A stretch of 64,000 bases of DNA from Somniosus microcephalus (lineage: Eukaryota): assembly GCA_052327205.1 (NCBI GenBank), contig CM126228.1, positions 11,718,001 through 11,782,000 of the forward strand. The letters are read 5' to 3'. Under the pieces are notes generated by a model. That model was given only the letters and a program-made list of their open reading frames with translations. It was not told the origin of the DNA and did no database searches. Positions 337 through 27,310 of the stretch are shown here, piece by piece (within the stretch, counting starts at the first letter, position 1; every line of letters begins with the position of its first letter). Position numbers and translations under genes: made by a program.

Positions 337-688
337 CCCCACCTGACGTAGGGTCACCCAGACTCGAGCCGTCGTTGGCTTGTTCTCTCTACACAGATGC
401 GGCCGGACCTGCTGTGATTTCCAGCAAAAAAAAAAAAAATGCTTTTTTGTCTTTTTTGTTTTTCATACAGACCCCAGCATCTGCAACATTTGACCCCTTG
501 TGACCCCAGCTCATTGTTCTTTGATGTAATGTTTTCCTGACTAACCTGTTTGGACACCATTCACACCTTTTGATCGCTGTGATTATCTGTCTGCCGAGGT
601 GTGATAAATGGCAGTTAGAAAGATTACCTGTAATCATCTGGCATTATTCTCTGACTATATAAGCTGTGTCTTTATGCATCTCTCCACT

Positions 689-725
689 TCACCTGACGAA
701 GGAGCAGCGCTCCGAAAGCTTGTGA
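689..725 (+). ncRNA. Minimal type I hammerhead ribozyme motif in the Penelope 3' pseudo-LTR
   Basis: TCAC-CTGACGA-A-GGAGC(AGC)GCTCC-GAAA-GCTT-GTGA. Intact catalytic core, 5-bp stem II, palindromic stem III (AAGCTT), stem I TCAC/GTGA. AATAAA follows at about 731. Confidence 0.8.
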
Positions 726-3500: not shown

Positions 3501-4251
3501 ACTAATATACAGTAAATGTGCATAAAGCTATGTAATTCAAATGCAAAAATATCACTACAATACTGTTACAAATGTTGAGTCTGCATTAGATGTTCTCTCG
3601 AGTTCAGCATTCACTTCGGGTGTGTGTGGTGGTGGTGGGGTGTATGTGTGTGTTTTCTAGTGCGCTCAGCCGTTTCTTGATATCACGTGGAGTGAATCGA
3701 ATTAGCTGAAGACTGGCTTCTGTGATGGTGGGGGTGCGAACCTCTCTGAAATCTGTTGGTATGGTATTGTGAGTGCACACAATTCTGTTAACTACAGTAC
3801 TTCGTTTAGTACCCAGGGTAAATCAACATTCTGAATCACTTGTTTGTTCCTGGAAGTTACCTCCCTGTGAACCAAATTTAATTGCAGAGCAACATCGTAA
3901 TATAAACTAATCATGAAATCCCCTTCAGGTGAATATCCCAAAACGTGACACATACTCTGCAAAGGAATGCAATTTGACTTAATCAGTGTAAGTTACTGGC
4001 CCTGATCTAATATTGTATGTTACATAAAACAGGCTGTCTTCCAATTTACCATAACCAGGTTCTCTTTCCCTCCCCCCCCCACTCCCCTGCCCTTCAGAGT
4101 TCCACTACCTGGCACCCTGCAAAGTGTTACCACTTTCTGTGATTTCTCCCCCACCCGTCCCAGTTATCAGTGGGCCCTGGGAGCCCCCCACCTGCACAGT
4201 GTTACCATATCTTGGGGCGACTGCCCCCCACAACTGCTAAATGCCAGGAAT

Positions 4252-4712
4252 CAGCTTGTATATCCATCCAGGACACAGCAGCCCGCTTGATTGGCACCCC
4301 ATCCACCACCTTAAACATTCACTCCCTCCACCACCGGCGCACCGTGGCTGCAATGTGTACCATTTACAAGAAGCACTGCAGCAACTCACCAAGCCTTCTT
4401 CGACGGCACCTCCCAAACCCGCGACCTCTACCCCCTAGAAGGACAAGGGCAGCAGACGCATGGGAACACCACCACCTCCAAGTTCCCCTCCAGGTCACAC
4501 ACCAACCTGACTTGGAAATATATCGCCGATCCTTCATTGTCGCTGGGTCAAAATCCGAGAACTCCCTCCCTAACAACACTGTTGGGAGTACCTTCACCAC
4601 ACGGACTGCAGCGGTTCAAGGCGGCGGCTCACCAACACCTTCTCCAGGGCAATTCGGGACGGACAATCAATGCTGGCCTTGCCAGCAATGCCCACGTCCC
4701 AGGAACGAATAA
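4252..4712 (+). mobile_element. 3' end of a non-LTR retrotransposon (ORF2 C-terminus plus 3' UTR)
   Basis: IQDTAARLIGTPSTTLNIHSLHHRRTVAAMCTIYKKHC is LINE ORF2 C-terminal like. The 3' tail '...caatcaatgctggccttgccagcaatgccc' recurs inverted at about 55950. Confidence 0.75.
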
Positions 4713-5036
4713 AGGAAATGCCTCATTCCAAAAATAACAATCAGTTATGGATTGAAATGTTCTGTGTAAATTCTCTGATGGCTCAGCTGATTAAGGCAGC
4801 AAGTAACTGATCCATCTAGACCAAGAAGCTCTGAGTTTTGTGCTCCAGTCTCTGCTGTGTTTGATCACAGCTTAGCTGCCAGTTGGGATGTTGCAATTGA
4901 CTAGTGCTTTTTGACAGTGGAGAAAAAAACAGCCAGGGTTGCTGCTCCTGAATTCATAATCGTGCTGCAAGGAGTCTGCGCTTGGGTGTGAGAGTCAATG
5001 AAAGGTGAGGACTGGGCCGTGATGACCCTACACTTG

Positions 5037-6660
5037 AACAACAACAACTTGCATTTATATAACGCATTTAACGTAGTAAAACATCCCAAGGAAGCTTCAC
5101 AGCAGCGTAAGCTGACAAAAATTGACACCGATCCAAAGAAGGAGACATTAGGACTGGTGTAGGTTTTAAGGAGCATCTTAAAGGAGGAGAGAGAGGCGGG
5201 AGAGGTTTAAGAAGGGAATTCCAGAGCTTATGGCCCAGAAGGCTGAAAGTACGACGGGCGAAGGAAGTAGGGGATGCACAAGAGACCAGAGTTGTCTAAG
5301 CGTTGTAGGTTGCAGAGATCGGGAGGGCGAGGCCAGGCCGTGGAGGGATTTGAAAACAAGGATGAGAATTTTAACGATAGCAAAATACTGCAGATGCTGG
5401 AAATCTGAAATAACAACAGAAAATGCTGGAAAAACTCAGCAGGCCAGGCAACGTCCGTATAGAAATGAAGAGTCGACGTTTCGGGTGAACCCTTTTTCAA
5501 AACTGGAAAGGAAATAAAATAGGTCGAAGGCAGGGCTGCGATAGAACAAAAGAGAAGTGAAGAGACATTGAGGTATTCAAAACCAGACGAGATGGTAATA
5601 GGACTAGTGGAGACAAAAGACGGCTAAGATTAGGTGTGACGTGTACTGGCAGGATGAGTGACAGCTGCCACGTGGGAGAGAGAAAAAAAAAGGGGGGTGG
5701 GGTGAAGGGAAGACCCAAAACAAAGGGGTGGAAAAAAAATAAGTAAAAATGTAATAGGGGCCGAGGTTATGATCTGAAATTGTTGAACTCGATATTGTGT
5801 CACTCATCCTGCCAGTACACGTCACACCTAATCTTAGCCGTCTTTTGTCTCCACTGTCCTATCACCATCTCGTCTGGTTTTGAATACCTCTTACTGTCTC
5901 TTCACTTCTCTTTTGTTCTATCGCAGCCCTGCCTTCGATCTATTTTATTTCCTTTCCAGTTTTGAAAAAGGGTTTCGACCCGAAACATCGACTCTTAATT
6001 TCTCTACGGATGTTGCCTGGCCTGCTGAGTTTTTCCAGCATTTTCTGTTATTATGAGAATTTTAAAATTGATACGTTGGAGGACCGGGAGCTAATGTAGG
6101 TCAGCAAGCACAGGAGTGATGTGTGAATGGGACTTGTGAGTTAGGATATGGGCAGCAGAGTTTTCAATGAGCTTATATTTATGAAGAGTGGAAGATGGGT
6201 GGGCTGGCCAGAAGAGCATTGGAGTAGTCTAGTCTGGAAGTAACAAACATAGAGATGATGGTTTCAGCTGCAGATGGGCAGAGACGAACGATATTGCGGA
6301 GGTGGAAGTAGGCGGTTTTTGTGATGGAGAGGATATGGAGTTGGCAGCTCAGCTCAGTCAAGTAGGACGCTGAGGTTGTGAATAGTCTGGTTCAGCCTGA
6401 GACAGTGGCCAAGAAGGGGTATGGAACTGCTGGCTGGGGAACGGAGATCATGGTCGGGACCAAAGACGATGGCTTCAGTCTTCCAAATGTTTAATTGCAG
6501 GAAATTCCACCTCATCCAGGACTGGATGTCAGATGAGCAGTTTGACTATGCTGGGCAATAGAGGGGTCGAATGAGATGGTGGTGAGGTAGAGCGGAGTGT
6601 CGTCTGCGTACATGTGGAACCAGATGTGTTTTCGGATGAGAATAACTTGACAGTCGCTGT
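5037..6660 (-). mobile_element. L2 LINE 3' portion, interrupted by a Penelope-derived insertion at 5375-6052
   Basis: Minus strand has FHMYADDTPLYL (RT YADD) and ITKTAYFHLRNI..L...AETII..FVTSRLDYSNALLA, plus the L2 tail 'ttatataaatgcaagttgttgt'. Confidence 0.88.
5375..6052. mobile_element. Penelope-derived element with ~250-bp inverted repeat and 13-bp TSD
   Basis: About 5410-5663 is the reverse complement of about 5798-6052. ATGAGAATTTTAA is duplicated at 5362-5374 and 6053-6065. Contains a degenerate hammerhead core (GGGTTTCGACCCGAAAC). Confidence 0.8.
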
Positions 6661-8624
6661 CAAAGTTAGTACATGAAGAGGTGGCCTTTGGACAAGGTAC
6701 TGGAAGAAAGCCAGCATCAGTGGAACTGCACTCCAGGAAGAAGTCACTGCTTTCATGAGAGAAGGAGGGACATCTCTGCAAAACCTCACCTCTTTGAGGG
6801 TTTTCTTATTCTTGTGATGGTGGAAGTGTTGCAGTGTTTAAAATTTAAAAGCACAAATTCTAACCTTTATCTACACTACTTGTCTCTAACAGCAGCTGCT
6901 AATCTGATTTAGCTGGGCTGTTGTCCATCACAGTCCCCCTTTTAACTAAATGCTACAGCATAAAGAGGAAAAGAAAAACCACAAATGCTGGAAACAAGAA
7001 CTTGTATGGATATAGTGCCTTTCGTGACCTTGGGATGTCCCAAAGTGCTTTTCAGCGGATGAAGTACTTTTGAAGTGTAGTCACTGTTGTAATGTGGCAG
7101 CCAATTTGCACACAGCAAGCTCCCACAAACAACAATGTGATAATGGCAGCTCATCTGTTTTAGTGAAAGTGCCGGAAATACTCAGCTGGTCAACCACCAT
7201 CTGAAAGATAAAGGCTGACATTTTGGTGAGACCCTTTATCAGCTGCGTTGGCTCATTTCACCTATGGTGGGGTGCAGCAATTTGCCTCAGCATGTCTAGG
7301 CTGAGCATTGGGGTCAGCCAGGGCTCCCCACCTGAGTGATTTGATGGATCAGTTCATTCTGCTTAAAGTGCACATGGGATCCCCAGTGAGTACAGGATCG
7401 AGCTCTCAACGTTGATGTTCCTTGTGGTCGAATAGCCTACTCTCTGTCGAATAGCCCAGCGACCTTCACCATTCACTTCCATGAAGAATGATCGCTTAAG
7501 TACCTGGAAAATTGCTGGCACCCACATAATTCTGTACCTTACCACAGAATGAACTACACTTTCCAGAGAGGAGGCAGAACAATTAGGAACTAAAAATTAA
7601 CTACTGTTTAGAGAAATCTATTTACCATATCTGTCTGCTTGAATAATTCTAGAAAATTGATTTACATGTACGAGTGAATGCTAGAGTAAGTTTTTTTTAA
7701 AGATGATTTAAAAAAATGATTTCAGCAGTTGAAATGAGTTTTTGACTGAATGTTGCATTAATTAAGTGTACTCAGTGAGAGAGAGTGTGTATGTGTGCAC
7801 ATTATTTGCATTGCAGTGAGCTTCCGCAAGACAGACTCTCTGATTTAATGTATACCTGATCCAGTTATATAATTACACTGTACCCCATGCACTGCCATTG
7901 CACATAAGTCCTGGTGAAAAGGCACTGGTCAAACTGATTATATATTTAACACGGTTCATATGGGCATTTGTAGTTTTCTTTTAATGCAAAAGTGAAATTA
8001 AAACAGGATTCTAGTCAGATTAAACAGTGCACTTGAAGTGAAACTGACCCCCTCCCCAACAAAAACATGGCAAAGCGAGCATGTACAGGGTTTTTCCCTT
8101 TAAGAGAGGCTCTGCAGTATTTTTCCATTCCAGCCTGTCGACGTGGCAGGGCTTGTTGTCTTCTGTCGGGCATGATGGGAAAGGATTTGGGAAGGGATTC
8201 AGCAGTTGGCCGCGTTGCAGCTTTCGAGTTGAAAGCGAATGCTTCATTTGTAGTTTGAGGTTAACATTGAGAGATTTTGTAATTCGGGCTAGAATCTGGA
8301 GTATCATTTTTCAGTGAAAAATCTTCTATGCTATGTAAAAGCTGCAGTATGGAGAAATGTTCGAAATGTCCTTGCTGGGTTTGTTTGCTTTACAACGAGG
8401 GCACATTTAGTGGCTATTATCTGCAATGCACGTCATTTACCAGCCCTTGGGGATTTGCTGAGCAATGTGATTGGTCCGGGCTGCAAGCGTAGAGGGCGGG
8501 GTAGCTCACTGCAGCAGATGTTTTTGTGGTTACTGAAAACTCTCGGCTTTCAGCTACAGCTTCGCTTTGTTGCTGCTCCATTTTAACCTGAGCGCTGTGA
8601 GCTCACTGCAATGCAAATAATGTG

Positions 8625-8668
8625 CACACACACACACTCACACTCTCTCTCTCTCTCTCTCTCTCTCA
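8625..8668. repeat. (CA)n(CT)n compound microsatellite
   Basis: Visible directly, about 50 bp upstream of a CTC1 splice acceptor. Confidence 0.9.
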
Positions 8669-8719
8669 CTGAGTGCACTTAATTTGTAATTGGATTTTTT
8701 AATCTGCTTGTTTTAACAG

Positions 8720-9407
8720 GATCTATGCACAGTTTTGTGTGGGTGACCTACAAGTGCTCAAAAGGCGTGCGGCTTCCACAAGCCCAAGCCCAGCTCCCCT
8801 GCTCATCCCTGCACTGCCGACCACCGCGTCGACCAGTGCAAGAGCTGCCGTTCGCAGCAGCTGCAGTCAGGCATGCAAAAACGATGAGGTCAACAGCATC
8901 GCATCCAATCAGCACCAAGCTGGCCCTTCCCTTCCCAAAATGCCTCGGCTGGAGGAAGTTGTGCTGCAAGAAGGCCATGTTGGTGAAAGTAGAAGAACTG
9001 TCTGTTCACACCCATTATGGACCGACAGAGAAGCAGCGGGCTCCCAGAACGAGAAACGGCAGCTGGAAGGCGCAGGTACATCCACCGGACATTCGACAGC
9101 ATGCAGAGGCAAGATAAAAGAGAAAACCCGCAGTGTCGGCTGCGTTACTCAGTTAATACTCGTAACTCACAAAGATGCCTTGATGCTGAGGAACTGTCAA
9201 TATGGCAGAAACGAAGGCTGTGAGCATACTAATGGTTCTGGAGAGGCTTTCACCAAGAGAGCTAAAACGGGGCTGGGACTGGCTTTTCAGGCTTCTGCAC
9301 TCAAGATAGGAAGTCCCAGACAGTGGGAAGATGAAGGAAAAATCGAGGGATTGCCAGAGCTGGAAGCAGACCCCTCTCTTTGTTCTGAATACAACAATTA
9401 TACACAA
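8720..9407 (+). CDS. CTC1: CST complex subunit CTC1, internal coding exon (first in window; 688 bp)
   Basis: ttttaacAG|G-ATC...CAA|GTAAGT. RIYAQFCVGDL...TQLILVTHKDALMLRN...LAFQASA...GLPE matches recalled human CTC1 RVYIQFFLADAL...SRLFLLCHKEALMKRN...LSFYV...GLPE. Confidence 0.88.
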
Positions 9408-19420: not shown

Positions 19421-19982
19421 CTTGGTCCAAATTCATTTCATGGAAGATTCTTTCAGCCAGCATAGTGTTGACATTTTCATTTCATCAGTCCTGGATGAAT
19501 TGAAACCCAGGTTCCAAAGGTGCTTGACCCACTGCGCCATCCAGCCATCAGGCAACCTTTGTAGGATTGCAGTGAAACCCGTGACGGAGGAAAGAGTATA
19601 AAAAGCAAAATGCTGCAGATCTGAAACAAAAGACCGAAAATGTTGGGAACACCCCATAGGTCAGGCAGCATCTGTGGCGAGAGGAAGATCGGGTTAATGT
19701 TTCAGGTTTACCGCCCTTCATTTCTCCAGAGATGCTTCCTGACCCGCTGAATGCGCCCAGCATCTTCTATTTTATAACTGAGAAATGGGTTCTTGTTTGA
19801 TTTTATTGTTCTTGATACAGATGCAATCTTGCCTAATGTGTGCAATTGTATTTTTAAAGGAGTGTTCTCCAATCCAATTATATAAACTGAAGCCACTTAA
19901 TCTATAGTTGCGATACATTTCAAATATGATTTTGGTCTTTTTAAAGTCCATTTCAATTGAATTTTTCCAAATTGTTTTTCAG

Positions 19983-23333: not shown

Positions 23334-24523
23334 GTAAGCATCAAGGATTGGGAATCCGATTTAAACAAAATGATCCCCTCAAGAATCATTCTATGCTTCA
23401 CTATGGCGATCAAGTTGCCAAAACATTGTTTGTGCAAGTCAGAGAAGATCAGCATTGTTTTTTCAAAAGCTGGAATATGTCTTGTCTGGGCACACCATTT
23501 TCTTTACCTGTTTTCGACAGGTTCTTGCACACAATATGTTTCAAATTATTGTAACATAACCACAGCCAGAGGATTAGTTCAAAATGTTTCCTATTTTACT
23601 TTCCCCCCCAGTGATATGACTATTGGCTAATCACACAGCTCCAGATCAATGCACTTGATGAGGTTTAGACAGAACACATGCAAGTTGGAATGTCCCATAC
23701 CACAAATTGGTCACAACATTCATTTAGGTTTGGGAAAACAATAGTCGTTTCATGGTATAAGCCGTGGACTTTGATTTGAACTTCTATTTCTCAATATTTT
23801 CTTGTTTTCCTCCCCCCACACCCCCTTTCAAACTTTCACTACCCACCAGATGGATCATCTTTTTCCACATGATCTTCCTTAAATAGGGAGCCTTCTTGAC
23901 TTCTTATTATTGTTGCTGCCAATGTTTCACTCTCCAGTCATTTGCCTGGAAGCATATTTGCATTATGGCATGTGAACAATATTCTTTCCTCTTGCCTGAG
24001 ATGGATGACTCCTGCAGTCTGACAAATTTCAGCTTTTGGTCAGGAACTGACTCAGCTGGAAGTACTTAGTCCTACAAACTCCTCCTTCCCTGCATTCTTA
24101 GTGGGTTGAAATAGAAATTTATTACCTCACCTCCTCTCTTTATTTGAGCACCTTGAAATTGTGGAACTCCTTGGCTCTCAATCTTCCCTTCGTCTGACAA
24201 TCTTCAGGCTTTTAAAGCCCAAGTTTGGCAACAATGAATCACTACTTTGATTTATCTTTATTCCTCTTCTCAACTTGTTCGTGCCTTTCACAATGGAATT
24301 GGGCAATCACCTCAGTTTCTTAATAAAAATTTTGGAAAAACAGTTTTGATCTTGGACTTGAATCTGTCTCCATTTGGTTCGGGATGCAGCTTGTAAATAC
24401 AAAGTCACTTACAGTGAGTGTTAGCAGATGTAGCTTAATTGGAAAAATAAGCATAAAAAATTATCAGTGGGCAAAAGTGTTTAAACCAATTTGCCCCAAG
24501 CCAATACATAGCATGATGAATAG

Positions 24524-24656
24524 ATGAGCAAAATACTGCAGATGCTGGAAAGCTGATAGAAAAACAGAAAATGCTGGAAATACTCAGCAGGTCAGGCAGC
24601 ATCTGTGGAGAGAGAAACAGAGTTAACGTTTCAGGTTGATGACCTTTCGTCAGAAT
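24524..24656 (-). mobile_element. Short Penelope pseudo-LTR-derived insertion with hammerhead core
   Basis: Minus strand: CTGACGA-AAGGTC-ATC-AACCT-GAAA-CGTT-AACTCTG...gatgctgcctgacctgctgagtatttccagca. TSD ATGAATAG at 24516-24523 and 24657-24664. Confidence 0.8.
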
Positions 24657-25199
24657 ATGAATAGGCTCTTTACTGCAAACACCTACTCTTGTCACACAAG
24701 CTGTTGAAATGGAAAATGTGCAGTAGTACTGTTCTTACAGTTACTATTTAAACAGACTTTTCTTCAGTCCTTCAAACCATTTTGCGTTTACTGGCGACAT
24801 GCAGAAATGTCACATTTTGTAACATACAAATGAAGTTAGCACGTTCAAGATGTGTTCCCGAGAAGGGATGAGGTGTAAGTTGGTGTAAAATTGCCATTAC
24901 AGTTAAAGGTTTGAGCTGACCCTGGCAAACTGCAGCTTGTGCCATAAGGTGCACGTTTATTTTGCAGTTAGCTTCTTGTAACATGACAATGACAGGAAAG
25001 AAAGCTCTTAAAACAGTTTGCTGTGGTTTTTGTGGTAGATTTTAATGCACTGTGACCATTCGCCTCAACATGCAGGTATCCGTTCCAAACTCTGTCTGCT
25101 GTGGATAAAAAATAGTACTGATTAACGGCCTGGTATAGAGACCAAGTGGAATTTAGGATGAGGATTCTGTGTTTTTGTATCATAAGTTTAGCTTGCATT

Positions 25200-26620
25200 T
25201 CTGCTCCAGTTCTGACCTTGCAACACTAAACTTCGCCCCGATCTCCTCCACAGCATTCACCAAACTTAACTCTTCCATGGGACCCACCTCCTGCTCTCTT
25301 GACTCGCTCCTGATCACTGAACTACTTCTCAACCTGGTGATCATATAGTAAGCTGCTCTCTCTCCCCCCAGGCATTGTTCTTTCCATTTTTAAAACTGCG
25401 ATAATCACCCAACTCCCTTCAAAACCTTCTGTTGACCCCCCTGTCCTCTAGCTATCACCCATTTCCAACCTCCCTTTCCTCTCTGTCTCTGGAATGTGTC
25501 ATCGCATCCCAACTGCGTGTTCACCTTTCTGTCTACTCTCTGTTCAGTTCCTTTGAATCCAGTTTCTGCCCCATCTACAGGACACAGTCACCAAGGACAG
25601 TCTGTGTACATAGATACATAGAAGATAGGAGCAGGAGCAGGCCCCTCGAGCCTGCTCTGCCATTCAATGAGATCATGGCTGATCATCCAAATTCACTACC
25701 CTGCCTCTGCTTTCTCCCCATATCCCTTGATCCCTTTAGCCTTAAGAAATATATCTAACTCCGTCTTGAATATATTTAATGAATTGGCCTCTACTGCCTT
25801 CTGTGGTAGAGAATTCCACAGGTTCTGTGATAGTGGATTGGCGGTTAGGATCAGATCAGCCATGATCTTATTGAATGGCGGAGCAGGCTCGAGGGGCCGA
25901 TTGGCCTACTCCTGCTCCTATTTCTTATGTTCACCACTCTCTGGGTGAAGAAATTCCTCCTCATCTCTGTCCTAAATGGCTTACCCCTTATCCTTAGACT
26001 GTGACCCCTGGTTCTGGACTCCCCGGTCATCGGGAACATCCTTCCCTATGTGACTGTGACCATGCACATTATCCCATTTTTGGACCTACTGCAATGTTTG
26101 ACATAGTTAGCCACACTCTTCACTCCATTGGCTGTTCTCCGTAGTCATGAACTGATCTCTCGTGGTTCCATTTCTCCCTGTCCCAATGTTGCTGGTACAT
26201 TTCCTGCAATAGCTCCTTCTCCTATATCCACACAGTCAATTCAAGTGTGCCTCAAGGCTCCAGTCTTGCTGCTCAGCGACATTAGTACACACAGGTTCAG
26301 CTTTGATGTGCATGTTGACAAAATCCATCTTTACTGCTCCACGACCAATCTTGAGGTGTTATATTGCCTGTCTGACATCAAGTTGTGGATGAGCTAGGTT
26401 TTTATTTATAGCTCAATATTGGTAAGATTGAAGCCATCCTATTTGGCCACTGTCAGAAACTCAGTGCTCAAGCCCCTGATCCTGCCCCCTGTTTAGAATC
26501 TTGTTGAAGCTCAACCTGAAAGTGCACAAGCCTTAATATTTTTCTCCACTGTGAACTGAGCTTTAAACCGCACAAACAGCCCTTCACCATAACTCCTTAC
26601 TTCCGTTTCTGCAACATCAC
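25200..26620 (+). mobile_element. Old L2 fragment containing nested CR1 3' ends (25610-26047)
   Basis: L2-type SYHPISNL..LS..LE.VIASQL and later CLSDIKLWMS motifs. A minus-strand CR1 tail lies inside, itself split by a plus-strand CR1 tail at 25826-25932. Confidence 0.7.
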
Positions 26621-26920
26621 CTCCCTTCCTTCCTCCCCTCCCCTATTTAATTGATAGTTCTGCGTTAACAATTTCCTTTCCAGTGCTGCAAACTTGAAGC
26701 TGTATATTTTTTTTAAATTTTGGAAGTAACCAATTAAAACTTGATTTTCAGCAGTTCCTGTTGCAGAACATGTACAAATAGAATCATGAGATTGAAGGCT
26801 AAATTATTTCACTTGCAAAACCCTAATAACCCACATGACTTTCATGCTTGGATGTGGGGCCTACCTCAATAGAATAAACAACAACTTTTCCCATTCAATG
26901 TACTACTGGGCTTCTCAGAT

Positions 26921-27021
26921 GAGTTCTGACGAAAGGTCTTCGACCTGAAACGTTAACTCTGTTTCTCTCTCCACGGAAGCTGCCTGACCACCTGAGTTTT
27001 TCCAGCGTCTTCTGTTGTTAT
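26921..27021 (+). mobile_element. 101-bp Penelope pseudo-LTR-derived insertion beginning with an intact minimal hammerhead ribozyme (26921-26959)
   Basis: GAGTT-CTGACGA-A-AGGTC(TTC)GACCT-GAAA-CGTT-AACTC. Flanked by TTCTCAGAT at 26912-26920 and 27022-27030. Confidence 0.82.
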
Positions 27022-27144
27022 TTCTCAGATAAGTGTTGTTTCTGGGTGTACAGATTTGCACCAGGAAAAGAGCATTAGTGATTACAGTGGTCTGTGATAA
27101 TGAGTCGGTGACCTAGGTTAATACTGGGAACTGTTTTGTTGCAG

Positions 27145-27310
27145 TGTTATTGTGGAGGATGGAACTGCAGAGGCACGAGTTCACTGTAAAGACAAACAGG
27201 TGGCAGACCTGCTGGCACTCAACTCAACAGAGTGGGAAGGACTGCAACAACACGTTGGTCCACGAGGGAAGGTGTACTTTCAGTACCAGGGCCGCACTGG
27301 ACATGAACTG
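27145..27310 (+). CDS. CTC1: CTC1 exon (166 bp, phase 2-0)
   Basis: ttgcAG|T...CTG|[39 protein letters not shown]...GKVYFQYQG vs human [33 protein letters not shown]...GRVVLQFAG. Confidence 0.95.

What the first reader, a model, noticed from the sequence alone, without database searches (positions are those of the whole stretch)
26912..27030. Intact minimal hammerhead ribozyme carried by a ~100-bp TSD-flanked mobile unit, in sense orientation in a CTC1 intron
Seen: GAGUU/AACUC stem I, CUGACGA core, AGGUC/GACCU stem II, GAAA, loopless palindromic stem III (AACGUU) and a GUU triplet predicting cleavage after 26954. The insertion starts exactly at stem I and is bounded by TTCTCAGAT repeats. Known: Penelope-like elements carry minimal type I hammerheads that are thought to cleave as dimers. 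Inference: this is a non-autonomous ribozyme-headed mini-element. It lies about 190 nt upstream of a CTC1 acceptor on the transcribed strand, so it could cleave CTC1 pre-mRNA if it pairs with another copy.
Basis: partly seen in the sequence, partly recalled or inferred. Interest (0 to 1): 0.72.

Follow-up and report, generated by a model that had tools for sequence, protein, structure and literature searches.

The report
Penelope retrotransposon stub carrying hammerhead motif
This is a real copy of the small self-cutting RNA motif that Penelope-type jumping genes are already known to carry, left as a clipped 100-base stub in an intron of the CTC1 gene of what is likely a shark; it is one of tens of thousands of such motifs in the genome and likely does not cut the gene's RNA.

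Summary
The motif is real: an intact minimal type I hammerhead at 26921-26959, sense, 190 nt before a CTC1 acceptor. The insertion is also real: a related organism, about 4% divergent, holds the empty site. It is not a dedicated mini-element. It is the clipped, tail-less 3' end (pLTR) of a very abundant Neptune/Nematis-type Penelope-like retrotransposon: 719 exact and 41,065 degenerate motif matches genome-wide. Of 92 copies chosen without regard to their 5' end, 58 run on into the parent's 3' UTR or ORF, 13 start within 5 nt of stem I (4.3 expected) and none starts at the cut site. The fifth stem I pair comes from the host-side repeat, not the element. Cleavage of CTC1 pre-mRNA is unlikely. 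The monomer is predicted to misfold, and the active dimer is predicted about 7.5 kcal/mol less stable than two monomers. No intact sense partner of the family lies in the gene, and an antisense copy in the same intron could pair with it. The scan reported the same kind of element earlier, in this genome and others. Verdict: new member of a known kind, low interest.

The parts
26912..26924 (+). Left copy of the target-site duplication (13 nt, 12 of 13 identical to the right copy); its last 3 nt coincide with the element's first 3 nt
   Evidence: empty orthologous site in run X4
26921..26921 (+). G that supplies the fifth stem I pair; not from the element (family has C), either a substitution in the duplicated target or an untemplated base
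   Evidence: (667 of 719 have C)
26922..26958 (+). Minimal type I hammerhead of the PLE pLTR: 4-bp native stem I, core 26926-32, extra A 26933, 5-bp stem II 26934-46, GAAA 26947-50, loopless palindromic stem III, predicted cut after 26954
26959..27024 (+). Rest of the pLTR stub; holds the likely first codons of the parent ORF (family ATG at 26977-79 reads AAG here); ends at the first of the family's two 3'-end clusters, so it lacks the ~33-nt tail
27022..27034 (+). Right copy of the target-site duplication; its first 3 nt coincide with the element's last 3 nt
23334..27144 (+). CTC1 intron that holds the insertion (GT...AG, 3811 nt)
27145..27310 (+). Downstream CTC1 exon; spliced to the next exon in two RNA runs
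24527..24655 (-). Antisense copy of the same pLTR (with tail) in the same intron, 2.27 kb upstream; predicted to pair with the sense copy over about 96 nt
5958..6054 (+). Nearest upstream sense copy of the family in the CTC1 pre-mRNA; U3-A8 core, stem III palindrome broken; has an antisense neighbour at 5377-5500

Best explanation
The 103-nt insert is a clipped copy of the end (pseudo-LTR) of a very abundant Penelope-like retrotransposon, and its hammerhead motif is a passenger that likely does nothing to CTC1. Inferred mechanism: the element's RT/GIY-YIG protein nicked the intron and primed reverse transcription inside the element RNA at the first of two internal start sites, about 103 nt downstream of stem I, helped by a 3-nt match to the target. 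It copied through the uncleaved hammerhead, stopped at or just inside the 5' strand of stem I, and was joined to the target through another 3-nt match, leaving a 13-nt duplication. The copy lost the upstream part of the pLTR and its ATG, so it is probably a dead end. It looks intact because it is young. In the parent the ribozyme is conserved and would work as a strand-swapped dimer or with protein help; alone in this intron it is predicted to misfold or to pair with an antisense copy.
For: Parent shown: copies extend upstream into a ~300-nt 3' UTR and an ORF with RT, a CKRRRCNTC linker and GIY-YIG; L295 shows inverted pLTR + pLTR + tail + ORF + pLTR; 56,391 first-look candidates for an RT piece. 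Copy number: 719 exact, 41,065 degenerate matches. 5' ends of 92 copies picked on a downstream 44-mer: 21 inside the ribozyme (+6 to +40), 13 within 5 nt of stem I, 58 further upstream, 14 of these beyond the 370-nt limit examined; 0 at the cut site. 3' ends: 44 of 92 at +95 to +110, 45 at +132 to +136, 3 between, the two-site pattern of PAc (PMC11167929). Youth: filled in organisms A and B, empty in organism C at about 4% flank divergence; 5 differences in 103 nt from the family majority; 30 of 66 copies that contain the whole motif are also intact. Against activity here: monomer minimum -11.5 kcal/mol pairs the core with the cut site, versus -8.8 for the hammerhead fold; swapped dimer -15.5 versus -23.0 for two monomers; antisense copy duplex -159.6; no other intact sense family motif with a matching stem III in about 77 kb of CTC1; no pile of read ends at 26954/55 in 2 of 2 RNA runs. 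Published: single min-HHRs showed no cleavage and dimers low cleavage (PMC4209133).
Against: 5' ends are not fully random: 13 of 92 within 5 nt of stem I against 4.3 expected (p 5e-4), so a preferred stop or RNA start exists there. All 5 substitutions of this copy fall outside the 38-nt ribozyme (chance about 0.10, my arithmetic). Stems I and II do form with high probability in the isolated 39-mer (stem I 0.94-0.99 for four pairs, 0.42 for the innermost; stem II 0.98-1.0). The nearest-neighbour energies leave out tertiary contacts and proteins, and the PAc hammerhead cleaved only when its protein was added (PMC11167929). The RNA runs have almost no unique intron coverage and reads on the element are multi-mapped, so they cannot show absence of cleavage; the junction across this intron was not among the joints listed (6 not shown). 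The 92 copies are the first 92 of 1515 matches, all on one chromosome and from one subfamily.
Confidence: 0.86

Rival explanations
1. Stem I marks the transcription start of the PLE RNA. Short copies like this one are complete reverse transcripts of the RNA's first 103-136 nt, made when RT starts at the 5'-proximal tail. The G at 26921 would be a copied cap. This refines the best explanation and does not change the verdict on CTC1.
For: Three-fold excess of 5' ends at stem I; an initiator-like pyrimidine-C-A-G-T-T and an AT-rich box about 30 nt upstream in many long copies (motif names recalled); G is the commonest non-C base before stem I (22 of 52); TATA plus Inr were described in a rotifer pLTR (PMC3846280, passages).
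Against: The peak is broad (-5 to +10) and holds a minority of copies. Most G cases with a readable duplication take the G from the target; a G absent from the right-hand repeat was clear only in this copy and L137/L009, and both can be read as an A-to-G change in the duplication. An abundant sub-lineage lacks the AT-rich box. No pile of read starts at 26922 (not a 5'-end library).
Confidence: 0.3
2. A dedicated non-autonomous, SINE-like mini-element headed by the ribozyme, with its own master copies.
For: Short TSD-flanked copies beginning near stem I do recur; PLE-derived non-autonomous retrozymes exist in vertebrates (10.64898/2026.07.22.740005, abstract, methods and passages).
Against: 667 of 719 exact-motif copies keep the parent's base before stem I and 25 of the first 30 keep the parent's upstream sequence; no column among +34 to +103 has a different majority letter in 32 short versus 25 long copies (ungapped); no shared sense-strand leader upstream in 64 short-copy entries, some being the same place fetched twice; no tandem array here.
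Confidence: 0.07
3. The motif cuts CTC1 pre-mRNA in trans, pairing with any transcribed family copy or helped by the PLE protein, and so lowers or tunes CTC1 expression.
For: Sense orientation, intact core, 190 nt before the acceptor; tens of thousands of potential partners; family reads present on both strands in RNA runs; precedent for an intronic ribozyme affecting its host mRNA (CPEB3, PMC10919898, abstract).
Against: Dimer disfavoured by about 7.5 kcal/mol; only 4-bp helices hold the partners; antisense copy in the same intron; insertion is lineage-restricted; exon 27145-27310 is spliced onward in both runs (2 and 10 reads); PLE hammerheads are very slow even as dimers (PMC4209133; PMC6765202, passages).
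Confidence: 0.05

Closest known systems
Minimal type I hammerheads (min-HHR) in pLTRs of metazoan Penelope-like elements (Cervera and De la Pena 2014, PMC4209133; parts 1-2 of 4 read)
   Same: Core boxes, extra nucleotide between 9 and 10.1, 4-5 bp helix I, no helix III loop with palindromic 15.2-16.2, location in the pLTR, mostly dispersed single motifs, U3-A8 core variant in the family.
   Different: Pair 10.1-11.1 is A-U here (G-C in the published consensus; G-U 39, A-U 28, G-C 13 of 80 haplotypes); helix II is 5 bp, not 7-8; copy number (41,065 pattern matches) exceeds the 4,000-9,000 reported for coelacanth and frog, by a different search method.
EN+ Penelope-like elements, Neptune/Nematis type (Craig et al. 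2021, PMC8557442; passages read)
   Same: RT then CX2-5CxxC linker then C-terminal GIY-YIG; 5'-truncated copies, inverted 5' copies, optional 30-40 bp tail, hammerhead in pLTR.
   Different: The window holds only the last 103 nt of such an element; Neptune was not separated from Nematis by a tree.
PAc, Poseidon element of Anolis (Frangieh et al. 2024, PMC11167929; parts 1-2 of 4 read)
   Same: Two internal RT start sites that define the tail; uncleaved RNA is the template; ORF start close to the hammerhead; no read ends at the cut site.
   Different: This family has the Cys linker that Poseidon lacks; its likely ATG lies downstream of the ribozyme, not in stem II; short target matches at the 3' junction are seen here.
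Non-LTR retrozymes (10.64898/2026.07.22.740005; part 1 of 5 and passages read)
   Same: Non-coding, type I hammerhead, derived from PLE pLTRs, monomers dispersed including in introns.
   Different: Defined by tandem units with a hammerhead in each; this is a single stub continuous with the parent's sequence.
Host-exapted intronic ribozymes: CPEB3 (PMC10919898, abstract read); amniote HH9/HH10 hammerheads (recalled)
   Same: Self-cleaving motif in sense in an intron, near a downstream exon.
   Different: Those are single-copy, conserved across species and active as monomers; this is a young, lineage-restricted repeat copy with no stem III.

Membership tests
PLE minimal hammerhead (min-HHR) | CUGANGA and GAAA boxes with an NUH triplet | tested here: met
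PLE minimal hammerhead (min-HHR) | [quoted passage not shown] | tested here: met
   A26933; 4 native pairs plus 1; AACGUU
PLE minimal hammerhead (min-HHR) | Highly conserved G10.1-C11.1 pair | tested here: not met
   A-U in this copy; the position stays paired in 80 of 80 haplotypes as G-U 39, A-U 28, G-C 13. PMC4209133 gives it as an emergent consensus trait, not part of the descriptor
PLE minimal hammerhead (min-HHR) | Covariation across family members | tested here: met
   95.7% of 769 cells paired, 20 cells with change on both sides, 0 of 500 shuffles as high; but only 3 of 10 pairs show such change (179 of 500 shuffles as high) and sequences are related
PLE minimal hammerhead (min-HHR) | Located in the pLTR of an RT/GIY-YIG element | tested here: met
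PLE minimal hammerhead (min-HHR) | Self-cleavage as a dimer | not testable with these tools
   only energies computed
EN+ Penelope-like element, Neptune/Nematis type (parent family) | Single ORF with RT and C-terminal GIY-YIG | tested here: met
   RVT_1 and GIY-YIG in 2 of 3 long frames, both below Pfam's curated cut-offs; frames
EN+ Penelope-like element, Neptune/Nematis type (parent family) | CX2-5CxxC linker between RT and EN | tested here: met
   CKRRRCNTC in L010 and L022; definition in PMC8557442
EN+ Penelope-like element, Neptune/Nematis type (parent family) | Direct and inverted pLTRs with an optional 30-40 bp tail | tested here: met
EN+ Penelope-like element, Neptune/Nematis type (parent family) | Placement in the Neptune clade by RT phylogeny | not tested
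   no reference RT sequences on hand; no tree built
Non-autonomous SINE-like mini-element | Fixed 5' end shared by most copies | tested here: not met
   13 of 92 within 5 nt of stem I
Non-autonomous SINE-like mini-element | Diagnostic changes showing its own master copies | tested here: not met
   same majority letter in 32 short and 25 long copies at all columns +34 to +103
Non-autonomous SINE-like mini-element | Internal promoter within the short unit | not tested
   no promoter assay or 5'-end data
Non-LTR retrozyme | At least two tandem units each with a hammerhead | tested here: not met
   single copy; no second sense unit nearby
Non-LTR retrozyme | Circular RNA intermediate | not testable with these tools
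   no suitable library
Exapted intronic hammerhead (HH9/HH10 type) | Match to Rfam hammerhead models | tested here: not met
Exapted intronic hammerhead (HH9/HH10 type) | Conservation at the orthologous site across species | tested here: not met
   empty site in organism C

The most novel reading that the evidence does not exclude
Tens of thousands of dispersed half-competent hammerheads form a trans-acting network: when the Penelope family is switched on, its RNA and protein complete the ribozyme in sense intronic copies and cut host pre-mRNAs, CTC1 among them, coupling the activity of a telomerase-related retroelement to a telomere-maintenance gene.
Probability: 0.04. Interest if true: 0.75.

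Novelty: new member of a known kind. Interest (0 to 1): 0.18.

Why it matters
As a single locus it matters little: it is one young copy among tens of thousands. The family is a good test bed for an open question, what PLE hammerheads are for. Here 0 of 92 copies begin at the cut site, the 3' ends fall in two sharp clusters as predicted by internal RT initiation in a different PLE clade, and there is a modest excess of 5' ends at stem I that may mark the RNA start. If trans cleavage of host introns were real, PLE bursts would directly affect host splicing, but nothing found here supports that.

Tried and rejected
Rfam: no hammerhead model matches; the only hit is a chance snoRNA match at E 2. 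Cap-derived G at 26921: first suggested by 13 of the 30 best hits starting with G, but that was bias from my query; in position-ordered copies 0 of 30 had G, genome-wide 22 of 719, and most readable cases take G from the target. Spliced-leader or intron-removed origin, by analogy with D. virilis where the intron ends at helix I (PMC4209133): none of the short-copy upstream flanks matched the parent in sense except one long copy (64 entries); matches were inverted pLTRs. U3-A8 covariation looked strong in my loci (18 of 25 U3 copies) but those loci were biased; among the first 100 rows of the genome-wide pattern I count U3 with G8 34, U3-A8 5, C3-G8 59, C3-A8 2, so the wobble form dominates the U3 lineages. 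Run search listed no RNA holder; two same-label RNA runs were laid instead and give almost no unique intron coverage, so they say nothing firm on cleavage. Lunse et al. on dimer cleavage is not held in the library; it is cited only through the review PMC6765202. A search for CTC1 with ribozyme returned 2 unrelated reviews (listing only); searches for shark PLE hammerheads showed no paper on this family in the listings, which is not proof of absence. An ATG count had a faulty pattern (0 of 30) and was redone (28 of 30). No supplements were read.

Full report
1. Observation. A motif this strict appeared 0 times in 100 simulated windows. Rfam has no matching model and the unit is not unusually stable (z -0.62), as expected for a minimal motif. 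The downstream exon is CTC1; its closest relatives are all from cartilaginous fish, 78-96% identical, so the host is likely a shark. The gene runs on the + strand from about 33 kb before the window to 43.6 kb. The motif sits in intron 23334-27144, 190 nt before the acceptor.

2. The insertion and its edges. A contig from run X4 (organism C, 46 other letters over 1089 aligned) spans both flanks and skips 26917-27028, while runs X1 and X3 (organisms A and B) read from the left flank into the element. The insertion is therefore real and younger than the split from C; the skip is 112 nt against 110 expected, so C also lacks 2 nt of the target. The flanking repeat is 13 nt with one mismatch and shares 3 nt with each end of the element. 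The mismatched base is G26921. Genome-wide, 667 of 719 exact copies of 26922-26954 have C at that place. The native stem I is thus 4 bp, and the fifth pair of this copy is an accident of the junction.

3. What it belongs to. The best genome hits run upstream into a pyrimidine-rich stretch of about 300 nt and then the end of an ORF. That ORF has RT, a CKRRRCNTC linker and GIY-YIG, the layout given for Neptune and Nematis PLEs in PMC8557442. In all 12 long-frame loci fetched a pLTR match is present, in most a few hundred nt after the stop. L295 shows the full unit, with the frame open from an ATG just downstream of the ribozyme; that ATG is kept in 28 of 30 copies and lost here. The family is huge: 56,391 first-look candidates for an RT piece, 41,065 matches to a degenerate ribozyme pattern with 0 for the control, and 19 pLTR matches in 399.5 kb of arbitrarily placed sequence.

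4. Do 5' ends cluster at stem I? I anchored on a 44-mer downstream of the cut site (1515 matches) and examined the first 92 by position. With +1 as the first native base of stem I: 13 ends at +11 to +40, 8 at +6 to +10, 13 at -5 to +5, 10 at -6 to -40, 16 at -41 to -100, 18 at -101 to -370, 14 beyond. About a dozen of the -31 to -75 calls belong to a sub-lineage poorly matched by my reference panel and are probably longer. The 13 near stem I exceed the 4.3 expected from neighbouring rates (p 5e-4); 0 lie within 2 nt of the cut site (3.0 expected). 3' ends fall at +95 to +110 (44) or +132 to +136 (45), with 3 between; this copy ends at +103. This is the optional tail and matches the two internal RT start sites shown for PAc, where uncleaved RNA was the template (PMC11167929). 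Short and long copies show no diagnostic difference, and no short copy carries a spliced leader. Absence of cut-site starts does not exclude cut-and-ligated circular templates, which would restore the same sequence.

5. Is the ribozyme conserved in the family? On 80 distinct haplotypes 95.7% of 769 cells pair, with U-A, U-G and C-G at the inner stem I pair and A-U, G-U and G-C at the base of stem II; 0 of 500 shuffles reach the paired share or covariation score, though only 3 of 10 pairs change on both sides and the sequences are related. The 3-8 core pair varies as C-G, U-G and U-A; my loci over-represent U-A, and the wobble is far commoner in the position-ordered list. This supports selection on the fold in the master elements. 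It says nothing on selection at this locus: 30 of 66 whole-motif copies are equally intact, and this copy's 5 changes missing the ribozyme has a chance of about 0.10.

6. Could it cut CTC1 RNA? Inferred, not shown. Alone, the 39-mer's lowest-energy fold pairs the core with the cut site (-11.5 against -8.8 kcal/mol); in longer context stem I probability falls to 0.18-0.77; the strand-swapped dimer scores -15.5 against -23.0 for two monomers. In such a dimer this copy would be cut by the partner's core (established geometry, PMC4209133 fig. 1 legend and my inference). The sense family copies in the gene are at 5958 (broken palindrome) and about 31 kb before the window (G8A), both in other introns. 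An antisense copy 2.27 kb upstream in the same intron is 87 of 96 complementary, duplex -159.6 kcal/mol. Published single min-HHRs did not cleave and dimers cleaved weakly (PMC4209133; review PMC6765202). In two RNA runs CTC1 is transcribed on + and the exon after the insert is spliced onward (2 and 10 reads); no read ends pile at the cut site, but coverage is too low and too multi-mapped to exclude cleavage. That GUU is a slower triplet than GUC is recalled; only lists it as cleavable.

7. Mechanism, shown versus inferred. Shown: sequence, parent family, duplication, empty site, end distributions, covariation. Inferred: target-primed internal RT start at +103, termination at stem I, microhomology joining, loss of promoter, inactivity in the intron. 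A transcription start at stem I is a live option (0.3) for the excess of 5' ends; the cap reading of G26921 is weak.

8. Comparison and novelty. It works like, and is filed as, a PLE min-HHR (one consensus trait, G10.1-C11.1, not met; activity untested). It fails the tests for a SINE-like mini-element, a tandem retrozyme and an exapted intronic hammerhead. Earlier notes of this scan describe the same kind of stub in this genome and others (none by sequence); one reports about half of its copies starting at the ribozyme's front edge, where my unbiased sample gives 13 of 92. These notes are unchecked and were not used as support. What was seen of papers: PMC11167929 and PMC4209133 parts 1-2 of 4; the retrozyme preprint part 1 of 5 plus passages; PMC8557442, PMC2377424, PMC3846280, PMC6765202, PMC3138052 passages; PMC10919898 abstract. 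Verdict: new member of a known kind; interest 0.18.

Noticed in passing
window 689-725 (+), with an antisense twin about 1.5 kb before the window start (L198): A second, unrelated intact minimal hammerhead (4-bp stem I, AAGCUU palindrome) in sense in another CTC1 intron; the same motif occurs twice in 399.5 kb of random genome (L105, L127), so it marks another abundant family.
   Followed up: partly
window 340-425 (+): A third family with a hammerhead-like core and a different, longer stem II region, followed by an A run; also seen in L127.
   Followed up: no
window 19611-19783: Decayed back-to-back (inverted) pair of pLTR fragments in a CTC1 intron.
   Followed up: no
window 5377-5500 (-) and 5958-6054 (+): Inverted pair of the U3 sub-lineage with GUC triplet and G-C closing pair in stem II; changes at core position 3, the triplet and stem II travel together across lineages.
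   Followed up: partly
window 25600-26050: Nested SINE/LINE-type repeats in the same intron that draw most RNA reads from elsewhere; a 107-nt skip marks one repeat inserted into another.
   Followed up: no
L295:3941-7394: Near-complete parent: inverted pLTR, pLTR, tail, ORF open for 160 codons from an ATG just downstream of the ribozyme, then frameshifted; second pLTR.
   Followed up: yes
L022:700-1640, L294:1-1400: PLE copies lie in or beside frames that look like envelope-type genes of LTR retroelements (basic furin-like motif, by eye).
   Followed up: no
loci L131-L160, L161-L263: Many short copies show 1-4 nt of microhomology between the target and the element's 5' end, and many carry an inverted pLTR whose junction falls inside the ribozyme.
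   Followed up: partly
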